In this document: positions 1 to 12,369 of the stretch, piece after piece
Numbering within the stretch: position 1 is the first letter of the stretch
Layout: each line of letters begins with the position of its first letter
Source: Amoebophrya sp. A120
Taxonomy: Eukaryota > Protista > Dinoflagellata
Assembly: GCA_905178155.1 (NCBI GenBank)
Contig: CAJINV010000045.1
Coordinates: 7,274-19,642 of the forward strand
Direction: 5' to 3'
DNA length: 12,369 nt
The notes under the pieces: model-generated
Told to the model about the DNA's origin: nothing
Database searches by the model: none
What the model saw: only the letters and a program-made list of their open reading frames with translations
Translations under genes and position numbers: made by a program

Positions 1-8
1 ACTTCGTG

Positions 9-260
9 GCCATAGAATCAGCCTCTGCTTCCAGGAGGTCGATTCTATGCCTCCGGAAATTTCGCGACCATAAAATCAACCTCTGCTTCCAAAAGGTTGA
101 CTCTGTGTCTGCGAAAATTTCGGAGCAATCAAATCAGCCTCTGCTTCCAAGAGGTCGATTTTATGGCCGCGAAATTTCACGACGATAAAATCAACCTCTG
201 CTTCCAACAGGTTGAGTCGGTTTTCGCGAAAATTCCGCGGCCATAAAATCGACCTCTGCT
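9..260. repeat. 58-bp-period tandem array of hairpin-forming units (about 4.5 copies; may extend left of the window)
   Basis: Core CCTCTGCT(TCCA) starts at 22, 80, 138, 195 and 253 (spacing 58/58/57/58). Each unit is an imperfect palindrome, e.g. CATAGAATC..CCTC..GAGG..GATTCTATG, followed by a CG(C/G)AAA(A)TTT linker. Confidence 0.9.
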
Positions 261-279
261 CGCCCGACGTTCGATCCCA

Positions 280-452
280 TATCCTGGATTCTAGATTTGC
301 AAAAGATCAGCCTATTCCCGGGCATAGGTCGTTTTTATGTGCGACGAAATTCAGGATCTTGCACTGTGGCCGTGATTCTAAATTTCTCCACACATAAAAA
401 CAACCTCCCCCCCGGAATAGGTTGTTTTTATTTAAATCTAGAATCCAAGATA
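280..452. mobile_element. MITE-like TAT...ATA element (family K, 173 bp)
   Basis: Left TATCCTGGATTCTAGATTT pairs with right AAATCTAGAATCCAAGATA. Imperfect arms extend about 60 bp (GTCGTTTTTATGTG / CACATAAAAACAAC). Flanks TCCCA/TGCAA match only 3/5, so any TSD is degenerate. Confidence 0.75.
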
Positions 453-590
453 TGCAACGGAACGTCGCCCCCATCCCCGGCAAGCGACCGCCTCGCCGTA
501 TCACGCAGCGCGTGTTCGACATGCAACGGAACGTACGTCGCGCCAGCCCCCGGCCCACCGCGTCGCCCTGTCACGCAGCGCGTGTGCGAC
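452..590. repeat. Diverged tandem duplication of about 69 bp
   Basis: ATGCAACGGAACGT...TCACGCAGCGCGTGT(T/G)CGAC starts at 452 and again at 521. Confidence 0.85.
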
Positions 591-1152
591 AACACGCGCG
601 CCGGAGCGCAGGAGAGGCTGGGTCTAAGGTCTCGAGCCGTGAGTATAAGTAGGATCCCTGAGTGTAGGACAAGGACAGTCTTAAAAAAATAGTGTAGGAC
701 TCCCATGCACCTAAAACGGCCGAAATAAAGCTAGGGCGACACGGCGGCCGCTAGGTAGCCCGGTCCGGAAACTCGTTGGCGGAAGGACGTTGCGACGGGC
801 GCAGCCTCTTGCTTGGCAGGGCTACTGGGGTGGCCCATGGCCTTTCCTACTTACTTGTGGCCTTTCTTGGTCTTGCCTCTTTCGCAGCGCTTTCGCGAGC
901 GGTTTCGACTTTGCAGCTGCCAGCTTTTGGCTATGGTGCGTAGTGAAAGGCGGTCAGCTTACAAAGGAAAGGACTTCTCCTCTCCAAATACCGAGGCCCT
1001 GCTCCCCAAATGCACTCACAGTGCTGCGGCGGCCCTTTGTAGTAAATATTTTCCGCTCTGTCCCAGGCCAACAGAGGCGCAAGCTCGCGGGGCATGGATT
1101 TCGCAGGACTTTACGGCATTGCCGCTTATTTGAAGTTTTAGAGTAGACCACT

Positions 1153-1360
1153 TGGGTCGAGCCGTGCTCCAGCACTGCGACGAGAGGTCGCAGCGCCGGG
1201 TGCAACAGAGGCTGCAACAGCAGAGGTCGCTAGCGGGTACTTAATGACGGCTCGCTACGAGGGGCGAGCGTGCGCCCTCCCCTCGCAAAGCTCGCTCGGC
1301 CACTACGTCGCCGGAAGAAGGGGCTACGACGAGCCCCTGGATTCTACATATTCGCGCCAT
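1153..1360 (+). repeat. Segmental duplication, block 1 copy A (paralog 6218-6390)
   Basis: TGGGTCGA(G/A)CCGTGCTCCAGCACTGCG(A/C)CGAGAGGTCGCAGCGCCGGG(T/C)GCAACAGAGGCTGCAACA...CAGAGGTCGCTAGCGGG, then GGCCACT(A/G)CGTCGCCGGA and TATTCGCG, occur in the same order at both loci. Confidence 0.9.
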
Positions 1361-2471
1361 AGACGTCAGGATGTGCCTTGCGAGTCGTGTGTGAACTCAA
1401 CGCCACTTCACATCCACCACGGGAAGAGGCCTATTTAGCAACCCGAGGCCCAACATTCATGAATTCCGAGTAAGAATTCGCGAAAGCTGCCGACTTTGAT
1501 GCCGGGCTCGGGGCCGGACTTTCGCGAATTCCGAAACGGAATTCATGAAAACTACGGCCGATTCCTGAGTCCCAAGTTTGGCGAATTCCGACCCCGGAAT
1601 CCACGGAAACCACCTGCCCCGAGCTTCAATTCCAAGCTGGGGAAGGGCTGAGCATTGATACCCGGCCCAGGAAAGTTTCCAGGGCGAGAGTTTGGCGGGA
1701 TCAAAGTTGGGATTCTGGAATCGCCCCTGCACTTTGGTAAAACTCGATGAGCGCGACAAGGTGTGCCCGTTCTTTGTTCAGCACAGGCAAAGCACCAGAA
1801 CTATGGCACGACGAGAATGGGTCAGCGCCTTAATCATGCGCCAGCCCTTAGTAAATTCGCTAGCTAGCCGCGCAGTGGAAAGCTCCACAAAAATGCCAAG
1901 CATGTCGCTATTCCTCTCCTATAAAGCGCCCCGCTTTCAATAGCGGAAAAGATCCAGAAAAATGCAGCATCTCATCGCTTCTTCTGAACAAACAGGCTAT
2001 CATATCAACAGCTAATTTCCAGCAATACAAATGACAATGTCGAAACTTCGCCGAAGTAACGGTCTTCAGCTGAAGAGGGAAAGTCCGACGAGCGCTCAAC
2101 GCCCCTTCATCATCTCCCCGTCGTTCCTTCGTCATACTAAACCACCCCAGCACCATAACTAAGTACGTAACAAATGCCTACCACAGCGGGTCGATTGGCA
2201 AAAGTGTGCCTATCACTTGCCGATGGGTATACGAAAAGTACGTCAGTCCCTGCCTCTTTACTTTTTCTTGCCCCCCTTTCCACCGCCACCGGTGGAAAGG
2301 GGGGAAGGGGGGCGATCAAAACGTGTCAACTACAATGGGGGGATCATCAATATCATCTCTCATCGATCGTTTTTGCTGAGTGCAAGCTATTTTGGTAGAG
2401 GGCGACTATTTCTGTTTTTGGAGTATTCGCGCCATAGACGTCAGGATGTGCCTTGCGAGTCGTGTGTGAAC
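1349..2471 (+). repeat. Exact 48-bp direct repeats (1349-1396 and 2424-2471) flanking a 1027-bp unique segment
   Basis: TATTCGCGCCATAGACGTCAGGATGTGCCTTGCGAGTCGTGTGTGAAC is identical at both positions. Confidence 0.95.
1456..1549. repeat. Symmetric inverted repeat / hairpin
   Basis: TTCATGAATTCCG-n5-GAATTCGCGAAAG (1456-1486) pairs with CTTTCGCGAATTC-n5-CGGAATTCATGAA (1519-1549). This gives two perfect 13-bp stems around a 32-nt loop. Confidence 0.85.
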
Positions 2472-2493
2472 ATAAAAAAGGGTGACCAACATC

Positions 2494-2842
2494 AAGCCGC
2501 GAACGCTTCTCTACTAGCATGCGAGCGTCATCTTCGCCTCCCTCCTACCAGTTCGCGCACCGCCATCGGCGTAGGCATTGGCTGTGTGTCTGCTCCTGCT
2601 GCGCTCCCCCGCTGTCCTCCATTTATTTTCATTTTTGTAGGCAGAAATTCTGGCCGTGGCCACCGCCGCCACGGGAGAACAAAAGTGGGGTCCTTCCTTC
2701 CACAGAGGTGGTTGGCCCATAAAAATTCCGGCCCTGCTCACGAGGTTCGCGCTGGTGCTGCGCGACCTAGTAGTCCTATTTGTGATCATGCCTAGAATGT
2801 GATCGATCTGGAGTGCGTTATGCTTAGAATATGAGAATGAAT
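2494..2842 (+). repeat. Segmental duplication, block 2 copy A (paralogs about 7291-7590 and, in part, 3333-3745)
   Basis: GCTTCTCT..AGCATGCG..CATCTTCGCCTCCCTC..CATCGGCGT.GGCATTGGCTG..TTTTTGTAGGCA..CCACGGGAGAACAAAA..CCACAGAGGTGGTT..GCTCACGAGGTTCGCGCTGGTGCTGCGCGACCTAGT is collinear with 7291-7512. GATCTGGAGTGCGTTATGCTTAGAATATGAGAATGAATTA recurs at about 3677-3716. Confidence 0.9.
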
Positions 2843-3055
2843 TATAGAAGAAAAAAGTGTTACAACAGTTACACATTGTCATGCAAGACTGGCAACAGAG
2901 ACAACCTTTCTCATGCAGGAAATGCTTCGGAGCCTCCTTTCCTTCCTGTTTTCCCTTATGATCTTCGCATTACAAGTTTTCTCTCTCATGCAGAGAAAAT
3001 TTGTGTTGCGGAATTGACAACAAATGTGTAACTGTAACACTTTTTTCGTGGGATA
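2843..3055. mobile_element. Degenerate MITE-like TAT...ATA element (family J-related, about 213 bp)
   Basis: Left TATAGAAGAAAAAAGTGTTACAACAGTTACACATT vs reverse complement of the right end TATCCCACGAAAAAAGTGTTACAGTTACACATT. The right terminus TTTTTTCGTGGGATA is shared with 3104-3313. No TSD (TGAAT/ACAGC). Confidence 0.7.
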
Positions 3056-3103
3056 ACAGCTTGCGTCGCTTTGATATTTCCACTTCACTTTGTTTTGCTC
3101 CCG

Positions 3104-3313
3104 TATCGCAAGAAAAAACTGTTTCACTGTGAACTTGTGATGCAGAGAATGGAGCACGGAACGATTTGTCTTGCTACGCCTGCAAGACATTGGATTTTTT
3201 AGCGTGTTTTCCCTTGGGAAGCGCACAATGCAAATTTTCTGTGTCATGTGTATACAAACCTGAGATGCAGATCTTGCAAGATCATCACAGTAAAACAGTT
3301 TTTTCGTGGGATA
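3104..3313. mobile_element. MITE-like TAT...ATA element, family J (210 bp), 5-bp TSD TCCCG
   Basis: TATCGCAAGAAAAAACTGTTTCACTGTGA ... TCACAGTAAAACAGTTTTTTCGTGGGATA. TCCCG at 3099-3103 and 3314-3318. An inverted full-length paralog lies at 11605-11813. Confidence 0.92.
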
Positions 3314-3374
3314 TCCCGCACAATACCCCCAGGGCTCACGAGGTTCTTCGCGCTGGTGGTGATGTCTGGCGACC

Positions 3375-3631
3375 TATCAAATGTAAAAAAGTTTGGGTCT
3401 GGAAACTTGTAATGCTAAAAGTGAATGGTAGACGCACTGCAATACGCACCTACGCATGACAAATTTTTTGGCTGCCATGTCTTACGTATTCCGCATGGCA
3501 AAGGCAAACTGGGTTTTTGCATGACAGGCAAGAGGGCCTTTTCGCGCCTATGCAACACAGATTTTCGAGCCATGCCAGACAAGCATGACAAACTTGCATT
3601 CTTCCAGACCCAGACATTTTTGCAATCCATA
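3375..3631. mobile_element. MITE-like TAT...ATA element, family A (257 bp), 5-bp TSD CGACC
   Basis: TATCAAATGTAAAAAAGTTTGGGTCTGGAA ... TTCCAGACCCAGACATTTTTGCAATCCATA. CGACC at 3370-3374 and 3632-3636. Empty sites (GCGCGACCTAGT) are seen at about 2760-2771 and about 7497-7508. Confidence 0.95.
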
Positions 3632-3666
3632 CGACCTAGTCCTATTTGTGCAGTTGATGCCTAGAA

Positions 3667-4320
3667 TTATGTGACCGATCTGGAGTGCGTTATGCTTAGA
3701 ATATGAGAATGAATTAGGTACCTTGTGGGCGACAGGAACGTCGCACCTCCTCTCCATCTCGTGTACAAAGATTCACTCCAACCGTCGTATGGATTGCAAA
3801 TATGTCTGGGTCTTGAAGGTTGCAAGACTTGTGATGCAGGTTTACCATGACCTATGAGGTCTGGAATGCATGACCTAGCATAAAAAAAAAAAAAAAGAAA
3901 ACCTAATAATGCCTATTCCGCATGACAAATGCCCTCCCGCGAAGCACAAACTGGAGCCCTATAATTGCTTGTCATGCAATACAGATTTTTTTAGAATCCG
4001 AAGACAGCATCACAAGTTCGCATCCTTCCAGACCCAGACATTTTTACATTTGATACGTCGAACCAGGGAACGAAAATTAAAACGCAAGCACCGCCTGCGA
4101 GGACGAGAAATATGAGGAGAAGGATGAGCACGCACTTTTTCGTGCAGCAGTCTTGGCAACAGCCCCCGTGGGCGGGGGTTTTTTCAACATTTTCCGTCTC
4201 CTGTTCAACGTGCTGTCCCACTGCGTTATCTTCCGCGCTCAGCAGTAGAGCCGCACTCTCGTCCCGGGCGGCTGCAGCTGGGTAGTACGTGGAGATCGAG
4301 TTGTTTTTATGCACTCTCAT
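3667..4320 (-). CDS. Putative small single-pass (type II-like) membrane protein interrupted by a TIR element; reconstructed join 4320-4061 + 3787-3667 = 126 aa. It may be a pseudogene or the first exon(s) of a longer gene
   Basis: MRVHKNNSISTYYPAAAARDESAALLLSAEDNAVGQHVEQETENVEKTPAHGGCCQDCCTKKCVLILLLIFLVLAGGACVLIFVPWFD has a hydrophilic N-terminus, a Cys cluster, KK and a long hydrophobic helix. After removing 3788-4055 plus one TSD it reads on as GWSESLYTRWRGGATFLSPTRYLIHSHILSITHSRSVT*. A canonical donor-like AAG|GTACCT at about 3721 could end the exon earlier. No homolog recognised. Confidence 0.5.
3788..4055. mobile_element. MITE-like TAT...ATA element, family A (268 bp), 5-bp TSD CGTCG, inserted in the membrane-protein ORF
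   Basis: TATGGATTGCAAATATGTCTGGGTCTTGAAGG ... CCTTCCAGACCCAGACATTTTTACATTTGATA. CGTCG at 3783-3787 and 4056-4060. Confidence 0.95.
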
Positions 4321-4342
4321 ATCGATATTTTCCCGCCGGACA

Positions 4343-4708
4343 TATGAACTACACAAGTATCGTACTCGTATAAGTGCATTTCTCAGCATGAGAGATAAAA
4401 TTTGCAATGCTGACTGACTGACTGAGCTTCTGCGTTATCCTGACATCCTGACATGGCACGCCCGGCATGCGAGTTACGCACTTCTGATGGTGCAGCACAA
4501 GTGCTACCGCCAGCACTACACTTCTGATGGTGCACGTCTGTTCTTTTCTTCTTTCAAAAAAACTCTTTCAGATGTGCAGCGTTTTGTTATCTATGTGCCC
4601 GAGGATTGCTCCTCTACCCTGACTGATTTGCAATGCTGATTTACCTTAACAAAAAGATTTGTTGTAATGCATGACTGCAATACGAATCCGATACTTTTGC
4701 ACAGGATA
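4343..4708. mobile_element. MITE-like TAT...ATA element, family I (366 bp including a nested insert), 5-bp TSD GGACA
   Basis: TATGAACTACACAAGTATCGTACTCGTAT ... ATACGAATCCGATACTTTTGCACAGGATA. GGACA at 4338-4342 and 4709-4713. Confidence 0.88.
4400..4639 (-). mobile_element. Nested 212-bp insert with 14-bp direct repeats and a (TCAG)n tail; possible retroposed (SINE/LINE-like) fragment
   Basis: ATTTGCAATGCTGA at 4400-4413 and 4626-4639. (CTGA)3 abuts the left copy. The segment is absent from the sibling element at 4762-4912. Confidence 0.55.
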
Positions 4709-4761
4709 GGACAGTTCGATCGTCGTGAAGGAGCTGGCGCGGAGTTCTAACTATAGAAAGC

Positions 4762-4912
4762 AATCCTGTGCAAAAGTATCGTACTCGTATTGCAGTCATG
4801 CATTACAAATCTTTTTGTTAAGTCACATACGCATATACTTACAAATTTTAATTGCTCAATCTCATGCTGAGGGAATTTGTCATGCATTTATACGATACTT
4901 TTGCAGTTCATA
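4762..4912. mobile_element. Family I element (151 bp), inverted relative to 4343-4708, without the nested insert
   Basis: AATCCTGTGCAAAAGTATCGTACTCGTATTGCAGTCATGCATTACAAATCTTTTTGTTAAG is close to the reverse complement of 4646-4708. Right end is CGATACTTTTGCAGTTCATA. The left terminus reads AAT and there is no clean TSD. Confidence 0.8.
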
Positions 4913-4939
4913 TGCAGGCCGCGGAGAAAGCGAGTCGCG

Positions 4940-5246
4940 TATCGTAAGGAAAAATCCACCCCCGTCCCCACATCGAGAGGAAAATTTGCGATGCTTTGTC
5001 TTGCGTACAAGGCAAGCGGAACCCTTGTGGCGCATTGTTCAGCGAGTCTGTCATGCGTTTTCGCCTAATATGTCAGCCTTGTTTCACATGCTCAGCTGCT
5101 AGCCGGGCGCGCAGCACCCAAATGGGCTATAGAATTATATGCAGACAAGCTCTTGCTGCAATTACAAAGCTCATTTGCGTAGTACACGAATCCACCAACA
5201 CAAATCGTCTTTTGAATATGGGGTGGGGGCTTTTTTCACTTTGATA
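4940..5246. mobile_element. Degenerate MITE-like TAT...ATA element, family H (about 307 bp)
   Basis: Right end ATATGGGGTGGGGGCTTTTTTCACTTTGATA is nearly identical to the right end of 11221-11544. Left TATCGTAAGGAAAAATCCACCCCCGTCCCCACATCG is a decayed TIR. Flanks TCGCG/TCTTG match 3/5. Confidence 0.72.
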
Positions 5247-5280
5247 TCTTGAAGTTCGGTTTTCGTTTTGGTATTCGTAA

Positions 5281-5863
5281 TATCAAATGTAAAAATGTCT
5301 GGGTCTGGAAAAATACAAGATTTGTGATGCAGGTTTTCCATGACTCATGAGGTCTGGAATGCGAGACCCAGCATGACAGATTCTTTGAGGGCTCTATCAT
5401 GCCTTTCCTGCATGAGAAACTCCCTCTCAACTTGGTCAAAAGCGGACAGCTTTTGGCACTCATGCAAAACAAATTTTTGCATGCTTCAGATTTAGCATGA
5501 CAAGTTGCAATCTTCCAGACCCAGACACTTTTACACTTGATAGTGCTGGTGGAGGCACGTCGAATTCCTCCCGCCCCACCGGGTGGCAGGTCGCGCCCAC
5601 CTATCCATTGCAAAAGTGTCTGGGTCTGGAAGATTGCCAGGTTTGTCATGCATATTTTGAATGGCCGATGATGTCTGTGATGCATGCCCTAGCATCACAG
5701 ATTTTCAGAGGACTTTGTGGTGCCTCTACCGCATGAGAAATGCCCTCTTCACGTAGCACAAACTGGAGTCCTTTTGCTGGTCATGCAATACAAATTTTTT
5801 AGAATCCAGAGACAGCATTACAGGTTTAGAATCTTCCAGACCCAGACATTTTTACATTTGATA
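5281..5863. mobile_element. Composite element: two 262-bp family A MITEs (5281-5542, 5602-5863) around a 59-bp spacer, with outer 5-bp TSD CGTAA
   Basis: Both units carry TAT..AAAA(A/G)TGTCTGGGTCTGGAA TIRs. CGTAA at 5276-5280 and 5864-5868. Inner flanks GTGCT and CCACC match neither CGTAA nor each other. Confidence 0.9.
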
Positions 5864-6217
5864 CGTAATGCGTGTTTCTCTTCACCGCTTCGGCTTCCGC
5901 CCTGTTGGTACCTGATCCATGATGTGACTTGGGTAGCATCTTGGTGATCATCGTGAGGCGAACACAAACTACTTCCCAAATCCCCGCAGTTCTGCGGCCG
6001 CATGGGGCCGCTGCTCTAGTCCGTATGTTCTCAACAAAAGGCCACGACACCCTTCACAGTGGTGGAACAACTCCGGCTCTGTATAAAGTGTATCTGCGCT
6101 GCTTCGCAGCGTCTTTTGTGCTACTAGATACAGTAGCGAGGCGTGCAGCAGGGACCGCGCCGCGACGTCCGCGCCACAGAGGTGGCTGCGGGCGTCGCAC
6201 TTGTCCGCCCACAGACG

Positions 6218-6413
6218 TGGGTCGAACCGTGCTCCAGCACTGCGCCGAGAGGTCGCAGCGCCGGGCGCAACAGAGGCTGCAACAAGTCCCGAACCCTCCC
6301 CAACAGAGGTCGCTAGCGGGCAGTGGCGGGCCACTGCGTCGCCGGAGAGAGGGGCCACGAGCTCGCTAAATTATATATATTCGCGTCAAGATGAGTAAAC
6401 AAGCCGCGCGTGC
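6218..6413 (+). repeat. Segmental duplication, block 1 copy B
   Basis: Collinear with 1153-1360, then AAGCCGCG as at about 2494. Confidence 0.88.
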
Positions 6414-7284
6414 TATCAAAGGAGCAAATGAATCACTTCACATCTGAATCATAGGGCCAAAAAAAAAATTTTTTTAATGTATTTCAAGTAACAAATCATG
6501 TGGCTTTCACTTATGAATGATTGCGTTGATATGATGCAGAATGCAAACCAGGTACGGCAGAAGAAGGCTCTGCTGTTGAGCTTCTTAATTAAACTAGGTA
6601 GTTGATAGCTGCAGGAAGATCTAGTTAAATAAGTAGCTGAAGATCATGGTTTATTTAATGAAAAAACAAAGAAAAGTAAAGGGATTTCGCCTGGTGGCTT
6701 CCGGCAGGCAGCCTCCCGCCAGGCTGGAGGAGCTGGGACGTCGCCAACGTGGAGCTCTGCGGGGAAGAATGTGTGCTTCTTCTGCCGGAGGGCTGGAACT
6801 CCGTGACGAAGCAGCCCAACGGATTCGGGCGAATCCGTTGGCCTGCTTCGTCACGGAGTACCAGCTCCGAATCCGTTGGGCTGCTTCGTCACGGAGTGCC
6901 AGCTCTTCGGCTCATTGGCGGTTTATGTCTCCCAGCAGCTCTCCACATTGGAGGCGTAGCAGCTCCTCGCTCCAGCTTGGCGAGAGGCTGCCGGCCGGAA
7001 GCCACAAGGCGAAATCCTTCTAATATTCTTTGTTTTTTCATCAAATAAACCATGATCTTCAGCTAGCTACTTATCTAGATCGTCCTGCAGCTATCAACTA
7101 TCTAGTTCAAAATCAAAGCTCTTCATTTGAGCCTTCAAAACTGCCATTCTGGTGGCATATTCGCATCGTCATCATGTGCATACAACTGAAGTCATTTCTT
7201 CATGCTAAGCTATATTAATACTCAAAAATTTTTTTTTTTGGCCCTATGATTCAGATGTGAAGTGATTTAGTTGCTCCTTTGATA
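6414..7284. mobile_element. 871-bp foldback TAT...ATA element (family C)
   Basis: TATCAAAGGAGCAAATGAATCACTTCACATCTGAATCATAGGGCCAAAAAAAAAA pairs with TTTTTTTTTTGGCCCTATGATTCAGATGTGAAGTGATTTAGTTGCTCCTTTGATA. Inner arms about 6592-6735 and 6960-7108 also pair, and a central hairpin lies at about 6793-6864. Flanked by GTGC/GTGC (4 bp). Absent from the paralogous site at about 2494-2510. Confidence 0.92.
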
Positions 7285-7290
7285 GTGCGT

Positions 7291-7702
7291 GCTTCTCTAG
7301 CATGCGCGCGCCATCTTCGCCTCCCTCTCCAGATTGATTGCGCACCGACATCGGCGTGGGCATTGGCTGCGCGTCTCCTGTGCTCCCCCGGTGTCGTCCA
7401 TTTTTGTAGGCAAGGGCTGGCCACGGGAGAACAAAAATGGGGCCACAGAGGTGGTTAGTAACCCATTCTGGCGCTCACGAGGTTCGCGCTGGTGCTGCGC
7501 GACCTAGTCCTAGCTATCATCTGTGATGCCGAGCATGAGATGTCTGGAAAAATGCAATGCCTAGATTGGGAATCAAGTAGGTACCTTGTGGGCGGCCGGA
7601 GCGCACGCGTTTCTCTTCGTTCACCGCAGGAATTGCGTGTTTCTCTTCACCGCTTCCGCTTCGTGTTTGTTGTCTAGATTGGGAATGAATTAGGTACCTT
7701 GT
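7291..7702 (+). repeat. Segmental duplication, block 2 copy B, including a 113-bp tandem duplication whose second unit is split by the 7703-8611 element and resumes at 8612-8690
   Basis: CTAGATTGGGAAT..TAGGTACCTTGT at 7561 and 7674. TGCGTGTTTCTCTTCACCGCTTCCGCTTCGTGTTT at about 7634 and about 8653, with a partial copy at about 5869. Confidence 0.88.
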
Positions 7703-8611
7703 TATGAGATGGACTGAGCGATTCAAACCCAAGCGATTCAAAAATTTTTTTTCAACTAAAACGCATCCCATCAACTCCTCCAAAACGTCCCCGGATTCGG
7801 CGTCGCGCGGAGCAGTTTCAGGTAAGTGGCGGAGATGTCGGCGCCGGGTTATGGAAGTAAAATATGTAGGCCGAAGACTACGAAAGAGGCCAACGTGGCC
7901 GGTCTCAACTTGAGGCAACTACTTGCCATTTTATACTTACAGGCTGCAAAGTAGGGGATGAAGTCAGCGCGTGCGCATGAAGCCTTGAAATGATCGGAAA
8001 AACAAGACGCAACAGTGCCGCCAAGTTGTGTCCCGGGAAAAACGCGCGTCAGCCATGTGAAGGGCAACCCAAGGCCCATTCCAAAACCCAAGCGGGCCGA
8101 CCGCCGGGCATGGCCGGCGGCTTCTGGTGCGCCGTGGTGGGAATGCCTTTGGGCCTGCTCGCGTAAAGGTTGTAAACCTGCGGCAGCCTCGACCAGGTCC
8201 ACGGAGGCCGCGCGGGCTACTATGCCAACAAAAAAATGCAACAAAAAATGCCAACAAAAAAAGCGCCTTGGGGCCAAATAGTGGCAGGCTTGGGCTTCGA
8301 GGGTATCCGCTGTGTAGCCTACTCTGTTGCCCCTTGCTTCTGCGAATTCTTCACGTTTATGAATGCAGACACTCGCCTTGTTCCCCTTCCCGGTTTTTCT
8401 GCGTTCACGTACGCCTAAGTCACGAAGTCAAGTTGAGATCGACCTAGCTTGTTCGCTTGATACTCTTCTGGGCGACGTTTCGGCGAACGCAAAAAAACAC
8501 CCAGAACACAGCCCATCCATGCTGCTGTTCTTTTCAAGAGTCAGGAAAAGCTTGGAACATGAAAGAAAATTTTTGAATCCGTTGATTTTGAATCGCTCAG
8601 TCCATCTCATA
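7703..8611. mobile_element. 909-bp non-autonomous TAT...ATA element (family D), 5-bp TSD CTTGT
   Basis: Perfect 25-bp TIR TATGAGATGGACTGAGCGATTCAAA / TTTGAATCGCTCAGTCCATCTCATA, extended by GATTCAAAAATTTT / AAAATTTTTGAATC. CTTGT at 7698-7702 and 8612-8616. Empty sites TAGGTACCTTGTGGGC at about 3715-3730 and about 7578-7593. No transposase ORF recognised inside. Confidence 0.95.
8222..8262 (+). repeat. Short tandem repeat (ATGC[C]AACAAAAAA[A]) x3
   Basis: ATGCCAACAAAAAA ATGCAACAAAAA ATGCCAACAAAAAAA. Confidence 0.8.
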
Positions 8612-9099
8612 CTTGTTGTGGGCAGCAGGAACGCACGATTCCGCTTCTCTTATGCGTGTTTCTCTTCACCGCTTCCGCTTCGTGTTTCTTTGAGTACTTA
8701 GTTTTGTTGTCTCGTCGTGGTCAATAATTTTATATTCAATTTCGTTTTCTTTTGGTGTGAATAGTACTTCAATAAAATATAAATTCAATATCTGTGAGAT
8801 GAGCAGCCGTCGTTAGTGATTTATGTAAACTTGTAGGGGCAAAGTAGAAGCGTTTATAATTCCGCGAAGAACAAAAGCTTCACATTGTCCTGTTGTGGAT
8901 GTGGGATGTTGCGTACGAATTGTGTACGATAATCAACATATTGTGCACGGCGAGAACAACCGACATGCTGTTGCAAAAACGAGCGATCTCGTTGCACGAC
9001 CGACGGGGTGAAAAATTATAGCCAGCGTCAACCTTGGACAAGATAGTACCAACACCGAAGTAGTTGAAAAGCAGAAGTTGCACGATAATTCGGAAAGAA

Positions 9100-9149
9100 T
9101 ACAAAAAATTTTGCACCATACGAACGTACAGAAAATTTTGCACGATACG
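9100..9149 (+). repeat. 27-bp-period tandem duplication
   Basis: TACAAAAAATTTTGCACCATACG at 9100 and TACAGAAAATTTTGCACGATACG at 9127. Confidence 0.8.
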
Positions 9150-9504
9150 CTGCACGACCGATTTTCATTTTAGGTCTAGACAAGAACGTTTTTGAAATGA
9201 CCGAAACGGTGCGGCTTGGCAAAACTGCAAAATTCGATTCTTCACGTCACCGAAGCGGTATCATTGTTGAGGTTGACCGAAAATAGTTCGCAGGTGACAA
9301 CAAGTGTCACGGTGTATGATGAAACTCGAAGATAGACGATATTGAAATTGGTGCATCGAATATATATATAACCAGTGCACGACTACTTCTTCGTTGAGAA
9401 ATTGGTGCAGCATGGAAAGAACAACAGAGCACGACTTAGTCTTACGGCAAACCAAAGCTCTTACCGAAGAGATCGCGGCTATGTCTCTATTGTTGAGCCT
9501 TTTA

Positions 9505-10640
9505 CTACAAATTCGCAGCTTTTATTCCTCCCACCGCAGCAGCCCGTAAAGCCTCGACTTTCAAGCACCTGTCTTCCACAAGATTTATCATGATGTGTTC
9601 TGCTGGGCGAGAATTATCTTCTTCACTAGCAGCTGTTCTTGTACTAGAGCCAGCTGTTCCTGAATTATTATACAAATTTTCACCAGAAGATGAACTAGCG
9701 TCACAGGATGAAGATGAAATCGCCTCTGCTATAGCCTTTTTTTCCGTTTCCTCTGAAACAAACAAACCAAACTGGAGCCACAGATTTCGAAAGCCGAGTC
9801 GGATCTATCAAGTGCAAACACAAATTGACATCGTCGCCTCTGCACTGGGTCGAGTTCTCAATCAGGTGGCCAAAACCCAAGTCGTCGAAATCCAGCATGA
9901 CAAACTCCAATCTTCTCTTCCATGTATCCCAGTAAAAAAAAATCCCCGCGCGAAAATGTTGCGTCACAAGTTTCAGGCCGGTGTCTCCTTGTCCAAGACA
10001 AATTTCTCATCACGTCGCCCAAGAACAAATCTTCCTTCCGCATCGTATCCGCATAGTAATAGCGTAAGTCACAAGTCGTTTGTCGGGTCGTGATCGGTAT
10101 CAGAGTCTGCATGCGGTAGTCGTCAAAGAACGTCGTCTGCGTATCGATAATCAGGTCGGAATCTTGTTTGCGAACAGCAACAGAAACAAATCTTTCGCCC
10201 CCAGCGAAAACTGCTTGCAAGTGCGCCTCCGGTCACTACCAATTTGATCTTCTACCTAGTGCGACATTGTAGCTGCACATCGACATGATCTTTGCGTAAA
10301 AAGTGCGATGCGTTATTTTAGGTAAGTGGTAGAGGTATACGCACAAGAGCAGGCTGGTACAACTCTCACAGTGTTGCTGTACTTATCACCAGAGGGACCT
10401 CCAGGCGGTGCGTGGGGCTACTGCACCAGACGTGGCCTGTTCTACTCTAGCAGGAGCCATACTAGAATCAATTCAAAAATCTTCTTTAAACAGAAACCGA
10501 CTTTGGTGGACGAGACATGGGCACTCATTTCCACTACCCAAGACCGACCATCTTTGCATTCGATGTTTCGCATTTTTCGATCCGACACAGCGACCGCTGC
10601 ATTCATCATTTCCAGGCATTTTTGGACCGATTCCAACACT
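9505..10640 (-). pseudogene. Possible frameshifted or intron-containing coding remnant of unknown function
   Basis: Repeat-free stretch with protein-like minus-strand frames at 10639-10442, 10220-9858, 9967-9701 and 9765-9505; the last three overlap. One frame switch falls at an A-run (about 9934-9942) and another at an acceptor-like TTTGTTTGTTTCAG (about 9752-9765). No recognisable homolog. Confidence 0.35.
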
Positions 10641-11220
10641 TCACTTTCGTAGAGAACTGATCATTTTTAGATAATTAGACAGCGGGAAAGCAATCCCCTC
10701 AAACGCTTTGGGCGGAAAGTGTAGTGTAGCGCCCCTCTGTGAATTTGCTGGGTCTACTTTCAAGAGGACCGCGCGATCATCTCAAGAACATGTGAACGTC
10801 GGAGCCTGGAGGAGCCTACGCGTCCCCTAGGGGGGCGGGCGTCTGTGTGAGCTCCGGCAAAATCAATTCCATATTGTTCCTGATGGCTGCACCAATGCGG
10901 TTCTCGCTGCGAGCGTCATTTCGATCGATACTTGCGCCACGGTCTTTAGATGTGAAGCAGCTTCAGCGGCAAGCTGAATGTAGTCTCACACATCACGCAT
11001 CATGCCCTCTGACAGATGCTTTTGCGTGCCTGCCACCAGGTACGGCGTTATACGAAATTTCGTAGTGCCCACGGGCGGGAAGCCCCGCGAGGGGTTCAAA
11101 GCTCTGCGTCAGTGCTGGAGTCGTCTGGTGGCACATGTGCCACATAGGCGAAGACCTTGGCAAGACGCTGCGGACATGATAGTGTTTCAAGGTTGATACC
11201 TATCGCATAGCATTCGAGGA

Positions 11221-11544
11221 TATTACAATTAAAAATGCCCCCTCCCCATATCAAAACGGAAATCTGTGATGCAGATTTGTGGCCACAAATCAGCTTTGTG
11301 ATGCTAGAAGGCAAAAGATGCGCCGGACTGTAGTGCTGCCTAACGTGGGAAAGCCTTGCAGCGCCAGGATGACAGGAGGCAACTGGAAGTGGGAAACAGC
11401 ATGACAGATTGCCTGCAATTTAGGCCGCAGCTTCGTCTCTTGGCCTTCTAGCAATACACGTCGATTTGTGTACTCAAATACAGCATCACAAATTCGCGAA
11501 TCTTCCGTTTCCGATATGGGGTGGGGGCTTTTTTCACATTGATA
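11221..11544. mobile_element. MITE-like TAT...ATA element, family H (324 bp), 5-bp TSD GAGGA
   Basis: TATTACAATTAAAAATGCCCCCTCCCCATATCAAAACGGAA ... TTCCGTTTCCGATATGGGGTGGGGGCTTTTTTCACATTGATA. GAGGA at 11216-11220 and 11545-11549. Confidence 0.92.
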
Positions 11545-11604
11545 GAGGAAGTGCGCGGGGCTGTCTTCCACGCGACGGCACTCGGACGACGAATTATATC
11601 AACA

Positions 11605-11813
11605 TATCCCACGAAAAAACTGCTTCACTGTGATGGTTTTGCAAGATCTGCATCACAAGTTTCTTACACATGACACAGAAAATTTGCCATGCGCGTTTCC
11701 CAAGGGAAAACACGCTTAAAAAGCCATTGCGTTGCAGGTGTAGCAAGACAAACACTTTGGTGTTTCGTTCTCTGCATCACAGGTTTACAGTGAAACAGTT
11801 CTTTCTTGCGATA
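11605..11813. mobile_element. Family J element (209 bp), inverted paralog of 3104-3313, TSD CAACA/CAACT (4/5)
   Basis: TATCCCACGAAAAAACTGCTTCACTGTGATG ... ACAGTGAAACAGTTCTTTCTTGCGATA. Internal TTTCCCAAGGGAAAACACGCT is close to the reverse complement of AGCGTGTTTTCCCTTGGGAAG at about 3201. Confidence 0.92.
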
Positions 11814-12369
11814 CAACTACATCACGCATAATTAATGCCTGCTGTTGTGTACAGAATTCGGAGTTTCTGTCCCACTGAAAAATTGAGCTGAAAAATCTGA
11901 TACTGATTGAAAAAGACATCGTTAGTATATGTCTCACAGATGTGAAGAATTGTTGGGCCAAGCAGTCTGCTTGATGAAGCAGATAGAACTAAAACTATAT
12001 TAAGGCTTTTGACGTACTACGGAGGTATTTATGTGCTTGCGGCCCTGGGCACAGAAAGCAGTTTGCTTTCGAGGACAAAAATGGGCCTTCGCCTTTGCCT
12101 ACTAGCTGGAGGCGGGGCGGTAGCGGTGGCGGCTCCAAAAAATTCGCGCCACAAAAGTGGCACGGCCCAAGCCTTACACGCGTAAGGGCGGGGCCGGTTC
12201 TGTTTGGTAGGTACCCGCGCCCCCACCGTAGCTTGGGCCGAAAAAAAGAGAAAGATAAACTTCGTCCGACTTGGTGAGAGGCGTGCCTGCGGCGGCTTCT
12301 CCGCAGCGCCCCGGCCTTTCATGTTTTCGTTTTCTTTCAGATAATACGGCGGCGGCGCCTTTTTTTTTT

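What the first reader, a model, noticed from the sequence alone, without database searches (positions are those of the whole stretch)
280..11813. Multi-family TIR element system united by TAT...ATA ends and 5-bp TSDs
Seen: about 14 units from about 7 families (A, C, D, H, I, J, K) have different TIR bodies. All end in ATA and all but one begin with TAT. Seven insertions have exact, non-specific 5-bp TSDs (TCCCG, CGACC, CGTCG, GGACA, CGTAA, CTTGT, GAGGA), and in-window empty sites confirm two of these. From memory of known superfamilies: Transib has 5-bp TSDs but CAC ends, Tc1/mariner duplicates TA, hAT 8 bp, PIF/Harbinger 3 bp, and IS3EU has TAY ends but 6-bp TSDs. I cannot match this signature cleanly to any of them. 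Inference: one poorly described transposase lineage mobilises many non-autonomous families. The autonomous partner is not in this window.
Basis: partly seen in the sequence, partly recalled or inferred. Interest (0 to 1): 0.85.

Follow-up and report, generated by a model that had tools for sequence, protein, structure and literature searches.

The report
Amoebophrya transposons that double as introns
The 14 small hairpin-ended mobile elements are real and match the already published "introner" introns of the plankton parasite Amoebophrya; 11 of them are missing, each with exactly five neighbouring bases, from likely transcript assemblies, probably cut out at a fixed distance from the hairpin, while the enzyme that spreads them is still unidentified.

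Summary
In detail: 14 TIR units, 27 of 28 ends begin TAT, and 7 of 13 insertions have exact 5-bp duplications. In a related assembly, 134 of 165 copies have exact 5-bp duplications and none has 6-bp. Contigs from probable RNA runs skip 11 of the 12 units laid, always element plus 5 nt. This restores a 246-codon minus-strand frame whose tested exon hits only Amoebophrya sp. A120 proteins. The signature is published: Farhat 2021 gives TAT-N7-AAA ends and 3-5-nt repeats for A120 introners, and a Gozashti 2025 table lists one family as "5-bp TSD, TA/TA Termini". Units that lost their duplication fix the cut at 1 nt before and 4 nt after the hairpin. The paper calls that border unknown, but this scan already reported the same register on other pieces of this genome. 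No transposase was found; IS3EU/GingerRoot has the closest ends but a 6-bp TSD. One extra lead: two adjacent units may have carried an 18-codon exon into the gene. Verdict: already known, interest 0.33.

The parts
280..452 (.). u1: TAT...ATA hairpin unit with no flank duplication; doubtful member, adjoining a 58-bp tandem hairpin array (3-260)
   Evidence: no depth in X4 over 1-826
2843..3055 (.). u2: 213-bp unit related to u3/u14; no duplication left; removal not tested
3104..3313 (.). u3: 210-bp introner, TSD TCCCG; skipped as 215 nt
3375..3631 (.). u4: 257-bp introner of the commonest family, TSD CGACC; skipped as 262 nt; empty paralogous sites at 2763-2767 and 7500-7504
3788..4055 (.). u5: 268-bp introner, TSD CGTCG; skipped as 273 nt; A120 paralogues align straight across the joint
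4056..4337 (-). largest exon of the host gene (Cys-rich stretch and hydrophobic segment, likely a membrane anchor); 62% and 57% identical to two Amoebophrya sp. A120 proteins, one of which has a glycosyltransferase DXD domain further on
4343..4708 (.). u6: 366-bp introner, TSD GGACA; skipped as 371 nt
4762..4912 (.). u7: 151-bp introner starting AAT, no duplication; skipped as 156 nt with an unambiguous cut (4758-4913)
4940..5246 (.). u8: 307-bp introner, duplication with 2 mismatches; skipped as 312 nt
5281..5542 (.). u9: 262-bp introner with no duplication of its own; skipped as 267 nt with an unambiguous cut (5277-5543); folds with a long terminal stem, z -10.2
5544..5596 (-). mini-exon kept between u9 and u10; the block 5281-5863 is flanked by CGTAA and adds 54 nt in frame after removal of both units (possible captured exon)
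5602..5863 (.). u10: 262-bp introner with no duplication of its own; skipped as 267 nt
6414..7284 (.). u11: 871-bp fold-back unit with a 4-bp exact duplication GTGC; no joint listed
7703..8611 (.). u12: 909-bp introner with 52-bp TIRs, TSD CTTGT; skipped as 914 nt; an A120 gene model holds a related end (86% over 43 residues)
11221..11544 (.). u13: 324-bp introner, TSD GAGGA; skipped as 329 nt
11605..11813 (.). u14: 209-bp introner, duplication CAACA/CAACT; skipped as 214 nt

Best explanation
These are the published introner elements of Amoebophrya A120 or a very close strain: small gene-less TIR elements with a 5-bp target duplication that sit in genes and are absent, with five flanking bases, from likely transcript contigs, probably removed by a modified spliceosome that measures from the terminal hairpin. 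Spread (inferred): a transposase supplied in trans, likely a DDE enzyme with a 5-nt stagger, recognises the shared TAT-N7-AAA ends and inserts without sequence preference. Tolerance (shown in contigs): the element plus 5 nt is removed, which restores the original coding sequence in either orientation. Register (shown at four joints of one transcript): the cut lies 1 nt before the 5' TAT and 4 nt after the 3' ATA and does not need the two duplicate copies to match. Machinery (inferred): the intron then starts N-U-A-U, resembling positions 2-4 of a normal donor; Farhat et al. found most spliceosome parts but no U1 snRNA.
For: Skips of element+5 at 11 of the 12 whole units in 3000-12369; six of them (u5-u10) share one contig depth in X4 (796) and in X5 (870). 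The joined frame is 246 codons on the minus strand against 99 on the plus strand; cutting +0, +3, +4 or +6 gives at most 133 on the minus strand. The only hits of the tested exon (proteins of 166-2000 aa searched) are two Amoebophrya sp. A120 proteins, which align across the u5 joint. In the related assembly, pieces of RPB1 on either side of three elements hit consecutive Pfam positions (Rpb1_3 1-58 then 62-107; Rpb1_5 1-24, 26-78, 80-99), and only +5 removal keeps the coding frame. Of 262 elements, 70 give stop-free frames of at least 300 nt on both sides after +5 removal, against 15 for +4 and 15 for +6. Both orientations occur in strand-called genes (11 and 5 of 16 scored). The published A120 motif fits 19 of 28 window ends and 738 of 908 locus ends; the Fig. 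S19 legend shows 5-bp repeats. Register: u7 and u9 allow only 1+4, u8 and u10 are compatible; chance agreement about 0.03.
Against: X4-X7 are marked 'RNA? (a guess)', are contigs without strand, and come from at most 2 samples of 1 study. No GT-AG intron is among the 15 joints shown (15 more were not shown), so there is no internal proof that they are RNA. Their contigs differ from the window at 4102 (all four runs) and 5573 (X4), so they may come from a near-identical copy or allele. The register rests on four joints of one gene and on a strand call from the reading frame. [quoted passage not shown] The joined frame ends soon after the hydrophobic segment, so the gene model is incomplete or truncated. 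No transposase was found here, and the paper found none in A120.
Confidence: 0.92

Rival explanations
1. Ordinary MITE cluster: the skipping contigs come from an element-free allele or paralogue in DNA, so nothing is spliced.
For: The runs are only guessed to be RNA; the skipping contigs differ from the window at 4102 and 5573; an empty DNA site would also lack element+5.
Against: The X1 contig of matching depth that carries the 4102 variant spans 4035-4411 and so runs into both u5 and u6 (tables 3 and 8). At u7 and u9 the kept five bases are a 1+4 mosaic of two unlike flanks, which an ancestral empty site would not give. Elements interrupt RPB1 coding domains in the related assembly. RNA-supported introns of this design are published (PMC7789003).
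Confidence: 0.04
2. On what spreads them: a 5-bp-TSD branch of the IS3EU/GingerRoot (integrase-like) lineage. This is compatible with the best explanation.
For: Complete IS3EU families always have TA..TA termini (PMC10045372); GingerRoot has TA..TA ends and GC-rich, non-specific targets (PMC6839031). Targets here are non-specific, 55% GC against 49% background. A120 family 38 is reported with LTR-element-like ORFs and is tabulated as Ginger, 5-bp TSD, TA/TA.
Against: IS3EU/GingerRoot TSDs are usually 6 bp; here 0 of 165 copies have an exact 6-bp duplication. No transposase in the window frames scanned, in 103 of 430 long ORFs of the loci scanned with Pfam, or by a crude motif scan of all loci.
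Confidence: 0.45
3. On what spreads them: no dedicated transposase; the excised hairpin intron or a host repair or retro-element activity re-inserts copies, in line with Farhat et al., who reject general transposase mobilisation.
For: No transposase detected in A120; the ends could be conserved for splicing rather than for transposition.
Against: A fixed 5-bp duplication across many families (312 TAT/TAT pairs at 5 bp and none at 6 bp in a scan treating lengths 4-9 alike) is what a staggered-cut enzyme leaves. An intron cut 1+4 outside the hairpin would carry donor flanks into new sites, yet homology stops at TAT/ATA. A transposase gene split by its own introners could escape a genomic search (inference).
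Confidence: 0.15
4. On what removes them: a non-spliceosomal endonuclease and ligase acting on the hairpin, as proposed for euglenid non-conventional introns.
For: No fixed donor or acceptor dinucleotide at the 11 joints; U1 undetected; Euglena introns also depend on fixed spacers from a paired motif (PMC12501133).
Against: The register places U-A-U at intron positions 2-4, like a donor (inference); nearly all spliceosomal proteins and U2, U4, U5 and U6 are present in A120.
Confidence: 0.25

Closest known systems
Introner elements (IEs) among the non-canonical introns of Amoebophrya sp. A120 (Farhat et al. 2021, PMC7789003)
   Same: TAT-N7-AAA inverted repeats, short direct repeats, hairpin, many families, typical length near the 240-nt average, no internal transposase, removal without GT-AG; the host exon hits A120 proteins.
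   Different: The paper gives repeats of 3-5 nt and variable or unknown borders; here the duplication is strictly 5 bp and the cut is 1+4.
A120 introner family 38 (Gozashti et al. 2025, PMC12130899; supplementary file 8, row 580)
   Same: Tabulated as TIR DNA, '5-bp TSD, TA/TA Termini', about 810 bp with 49-53-bp TIRs, similar in build to u12 (909 bp, 52-bp TIRs).
   Different: Identity with u12 could not be checked because no sequence was seen; the two u12 frames searched gave no integrase-like hit.
IS3EU/GingerRoot DNA transposons (PMC10045372, PMC6839031)
   Same: TA..TA termini, non-specific GC-leaning targets, TIRs.
   Different: TSD usually 6 bp; GingerRoot elements are 3.9-12.9 kb with 100-150-bp TIRs; removal as introns is not mentioned in the passages read.
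Euglenid non-conventional introns (PMC12501133; review PMC11282704)
   Same: Work alike: paired ends, no GT-AG, fixed spacer between the paired motif and the exon border.
   Different: Different motif (CAG/CTG) and spacers (3 and 5-6 nt against 1 and 4 here); different lineage.
hAT5 (mentioned in PMC12730594)
   Same: 5-bp TSD.
   Different: Known from an animal hAT lineage; no hAT transposase seen here; hAT5 end motifs not compared.

Membership tests
Amoebophrya A120 introner elements | Inverted repeat starting TAT, seven variable bases, then at least three A | tested here: met
   19 of 28 window ends and 738 of 908 locus ends; u1, u11 and u12 do not fit
Amoebophrya A120 introner elements | 3-5-nt direct repeat at the borders | tested here: met
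   7 of 13 exact in the window; 134 of 165 exact 5-bp in loci
Amoebophrya A120 introner elements | Removed from transcripts without GT-AG | tested here: met
   11 of 12 units skipped as element+5 in contigs of probable RNA runs; the RNA label is a guess
Amoebophrya A120 introner elements | Hairpin joining the two ends | tested here: met
   u9 z -10.2, 0 of 200 shuffles as stable; u7 z -2.7, 3 of 200; 2 of 14 units folded
Amoebophrya A120 introner elements | No transposase gene inside | tested here: met
   no Pfam family in six frames of u12; one u11 ORF scanned, no hit; the other units are under 370 bp
Amoebophrya A120 introner elements | Host is Amoebophrya A120 or a close strain | tested here: met
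   only hits of exon 4057-4338 are A120 proteins; an A120 model carries a u12-type end; exact strain not established
IS3EU/GingerRoot | TA..TA termini | tested here: met
IS3EU/GingerRoot | TSD usually 6 bp | tested here: not met
   0 of 165 copies with an exact 6-bp duplication; 0 TAT/TAT pairs at 6 bp against 312 at 5 bp
IS3EU/GingerRoot | Integrase-like DDE transposase in autonomous copies | tested here: inconclusive
   no autonomous copy in the window or in 832 kb of overlapping loci; whole genome not available
hAT5 | 5-bp TSD | tested here: met
   feature from PMC12730594
hAT5 | hAT transposase | not testable with these tools
   no autonomous copy available
Ginger1/Ginger2 | TG..CA termini | tested here: not met
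   ends are TA..TA; feature from PMC6839031
Transib / CMCT clade | CA..TG termini | tested here: not met
   feature from PMC12730594
Euglenid non-conventional introns | CAG/CTG paired motif with 3-nt and 5-6-nt spacers | tested here: not met
   paired motif is TAT/ATA with 1-nt and 4-nt spacers

The most novel reading that the evidence does not exclude
One undescribed integrase-like transposase with a 5-bp stagger (a sister of IS3EU/GingerRoot, missed because its own gene is split by introners) drives all families. A U1-less spliceosome removes them by ruler, 1 nt before and 4 nt after the TIR hairpin, whatever the flanking bases. Because any sequence between two such elements becomes an exon, pairs of introners shuffle exons, as u9+u10 appear to have done by adding 18 codons to this gene.
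Probability: 0.35. Interest if true: 0.72.

Novelty: already known. Interest (0 to 1): 0.33.

Why it matters
The elements are published, so the proposed new transposon signature is not new. Two questions left open by the papers read remain: which enzyme spreads tens of thousands of these elements, and how they are removed without GT-AG or U1 snRNA. This window helps the second, because units that have lost their duplication fix the cut position directly and give a rule that can be tested with existing RNA-seq and used to correct gene models. The possible exon capture by a pair of introners would be a route to new protein sequence.

Tried and rejected
No whole genome was held, and the loci could not be searched as a genome, so genome-wide tests used 142 loci (832 kb with overlaps) from assembly JACKZZ01, found by one TIR pattern; that scan covered 17 of 64 parts of the collection. 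The taxon of that assembly was not tested.

My first guess of a Selaginella host with GingerRoot MITEs was recalled, and was dropped when the loci proved to be gene-dense protist DNA and the exon hit Amoebophrya. I first read the skips as empty alleles and revised this.

Transposase searches that found nothing: Pfam on 48 window ORFs and 18 read-through frames; Pfam on 103 of 430 ORFs of 170 aa or more in the loci; ORF 9861-10232; u12 plus frame against 1.84 billion proteins, which gave only an A120 model holding the TIR and a spurious repeat-protein hit; u12 minus ORF; motif scan of the loci; TIR patterns in viral and prokaryote contigs. Four of the six u12 frames were scanned only with Pfam. 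Long TAT...ATA pairs of 1-11.6 kb in the loci proved to be chance pairings of separate small elements or internal matches. A search seeded with a published GingerRoot transposase was not run, so that lineage is untested by homology.

X9, raw RNA reads under the same species label, laid only 206 reads, nearly all under 95% alike and on one repeat family, and says nothing about this locus. No RNA holder on record was listed. u11 lies in a stretch with almost no cover in X4-X7, which shows nothing either way. The count of 352 of 454 exact 5-bp duplications is biased, because the end library came from elements with exact duplications; I rely. A 30-nt TIR string was not found in the supplements of PMC12130899, which seem to hold no element sequences in the parts seen. 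The 59-bp spacer between u9 and u10 has no second copy in the window or loci.


Full report
Observation. Reading the window with repeat maps gave 14 TIR units in 7 groups, covering 39% of the window. Among 1816 arbitrary TAT...ATA pairs, the only 7 with a 5-bp duplication are these. u14 has one mismatch, u8 two, u11 a 4-bp match, and u1, u2, u7, u9 and u10 none of their own; CGTAA flanks the block u9+u10.

Beyond the window. No genome was held. A TIR pattern found the commonest family in contigs of assembly JACKZZ01, giving 142 loci. BLAST with the window's units, ends extrapolated without assuming a duplication, gave 165 distinct full-length copies of four of the seven groups: 127 with exact 5-bp duplications, 134 after shifting 7 copies that were off by one base, 20 more with one mismatch, and none with an exact 6-bp duplication. 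A scan treating lengths 4-9 alike found 312 TAT/TAT pairs at 5 bp and none at 6 bp. Elements are mostly 110-330 bp, in 28 clusters of two or more plus singletons. Targets show no base preference, 55% GC. In runs X1 and X2 the summed contig depth over the commonest family is thousands of times that of unique stretches, a rough sign of high copy number.

What they are. The loci are gene-dense, with elements inside coding sequence. In RPB1 (L061), pieces on either side of three elements hit consecutive Pfam positions, and only removal of element+5 keeps the coding frame there; one of the ten elements examined in that locus (12308-12547) gave no clear coding continuation and may lie inside another intron. 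Across 262 elements, +5 removal gave long open frames on both sides in 70 cases, against 15 for +4 and 15 for +6. In the window, contigs of runs X4-X7 (labelled 'RNA?', at most 2 samples, 1 study) skip 11 of the 12 whole units in 3000-12369, each by element+5; u11 has no joint. The other 4 of the 15 joints shown link different repeat units with short sides, and 15 more were not shown. Joining at the six skips u5-u10 gives a 246-codon minus-strand frame. Its largest exon hits only two Amoebophrya sp. A120 proteins among those of 166-2000 aa, which align across the u5 joint.

What is published. Farhat et al. 2021 (PMC7789003; abstract, passages, sections 10, 11 and 16, and supplement legends read, figures not seen) describe 29,850 repeated introns in A120 in 1954 families, with inverted repeats starting TAT, seven variable bases and at least three A, and direct repeats of 3-5 nt; the Fig. 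S19 legend shows 5 bp. They found no transposase in A120 and no U1 snRNA, and call the splice positions variable or unknown. Gozashti et al. 2025 (PMC12130899; passages, and 41 of 58 A120 rows of supplementary file 8) report family 38 with LTR-element-like ORFs and tabulate it as Ginger, '5-bp TSD, TA/TA Termini'; most TIR rows I read are classed Unknown. The finding is therefore a known class.

How it likely works. Shown: insertion leaves a 5-bp duplication at non-specific sites; removal takes element+5; both orientations occur in genes (11 and 5 of 16 scored among 50 strand-called elements); the ends can pair (u9 z -10.2, u7 z -2.7). Shown on a small sample: where the duplicate copies differ, the cut is fixed. 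u7 and u9 allow only 4 bases left and 1 right on the plus strand, and u8, u10 and u14 are compatible. With the gene on the minus strand this is 1 nt before TAT and 4 nt after ATA. The first intron base varies (G, C, A), so neither the duplication nor a dinucleotide sets the border. Inferred: a relaxed spliceosome reads the hairpin end, where U-A-U occupies donor positions 2-4 (the donor consensus is recalled), and a DDE transposase in trans spreads the elements. I did not find this register stated in the papers returned, but Figs 3 and S19-S23 of Farhat et al. were not visible and may bear on it, and their text on 'four nucleotides upstream' points the other way or refers to something else. 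After I had derived it, the scan's own notes showed the same class on other pieces of this genome, three of them stating the same 1+4 cut; those are unreviewed and are not counted as support.

Superfamily. IS3EU/GingerRoot is closest by termini (PMC10045372, passages; PMC6839031, passages and part 2 of 7) but fails on TSD length, so I do not file the elements there. hAT5 shares the TSD length only (PMC12730594, passages). Euglena introns work alike with other spacers (PMC12501133, abstract and section 8; review PMC11282704, passages). Another Amoebophrya has mostly GT-AG introns (PMC12005148, passages). All transposase searches were negative, but they covered under 1 Mb of DNA and unspliced frames.

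One extra lead. u9 and u10 lack their own duplications, share an outer CGTAA, are removed separately, and leave a net 54 nt in frame. Only 20 of 454 paired elements in the loci have three or more flank mismatches, and no close neighbour pair among 340 showed this pattern. This suggests that a 59-bp segment came in between two elements, by joint transposition or by recombination, and became an exon. No donor copy was found, and a chance match at a few percent cannot be excluded; I put it at about even odds.

Verdict. Observation confirmed; interpretation partly supported; already known; interest 0.33.

Noticed in passing
window 5281-5863: Two elements without their own duplications share an outer CGTAA and enclose a 59-bp spacer that is kept as an exon, adding 18 codons in frame: possible exon capture by a pair of introners.
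   Followed up: partly
window 4757-4761 and 4927-4931: The left flank of u7 (AAAGC) recurs 14 bases after its right end instead of next to it; perhaps a similar two-element event followed by loss of the second element.
   Followed up: no
window 8612-8619 and 7285-7292: u12 and u11 each have three extra bases beside the right duplication compared with the empty paralogous site or the left flank (TGT after CTTGT; GTG before CGTGC).
   Followed up: no
window 3-260: Tandem array of 57-58-bp units that are themselves imperfect palindromes and resemble the inside of u1.
   Followed up: no
window 1150-1219/6215-6284, 2505-2844/7291-7508/3637-3740, 5869/7634/8653: The host DNA between elements is built from degenerate duplications of the same few segments; 1349-1396 and 2424-2471 are an exact 48-bp repeat.
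   Followed up: partly
window 10938-12369: Deeply covered in X4-X6 contigs that skip u13 and u14, yet no open frame crosses the joints on either strand; likely an untranslated or non-coding region that is still cleared of its elements.
   Followed up: partly
window 9559-10967: Covered by a 1409-nt X4 contig with no differences; several 100-200-codon frames without Pfam or homologue hits; scattered TGCACGA repeats at about 8940-9390.
   Followed up: partly
window 6784-6911: Nested short hairpins (36-45-bp arms) at the centre of the 871-bp fold-back u11.
   Followed up: no
L061 10792-11763: A 972-bp element with perfect outer TIRs and an unrelated AT-rich middle interrupts a conserved RPB1 domain, so long inserts between the ends seem tolerated.
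   Followed up: partly
L053 10329-10608: One element is flanked by an 8-bp duplication instead of 5 bp.
   Followed up: no
L013 2635-6090: Two adjacent ORFs hit consecutive parts of the C-5 cytosine DNA methylase family.
   Followed up: no
window 5458-5542 (run X9): About 180 RNA reads under the same species label carry part of a diverged copy of the commonest family joined to other sequence, perhaps a retained or exonised element in another strain.
   Followed up: no
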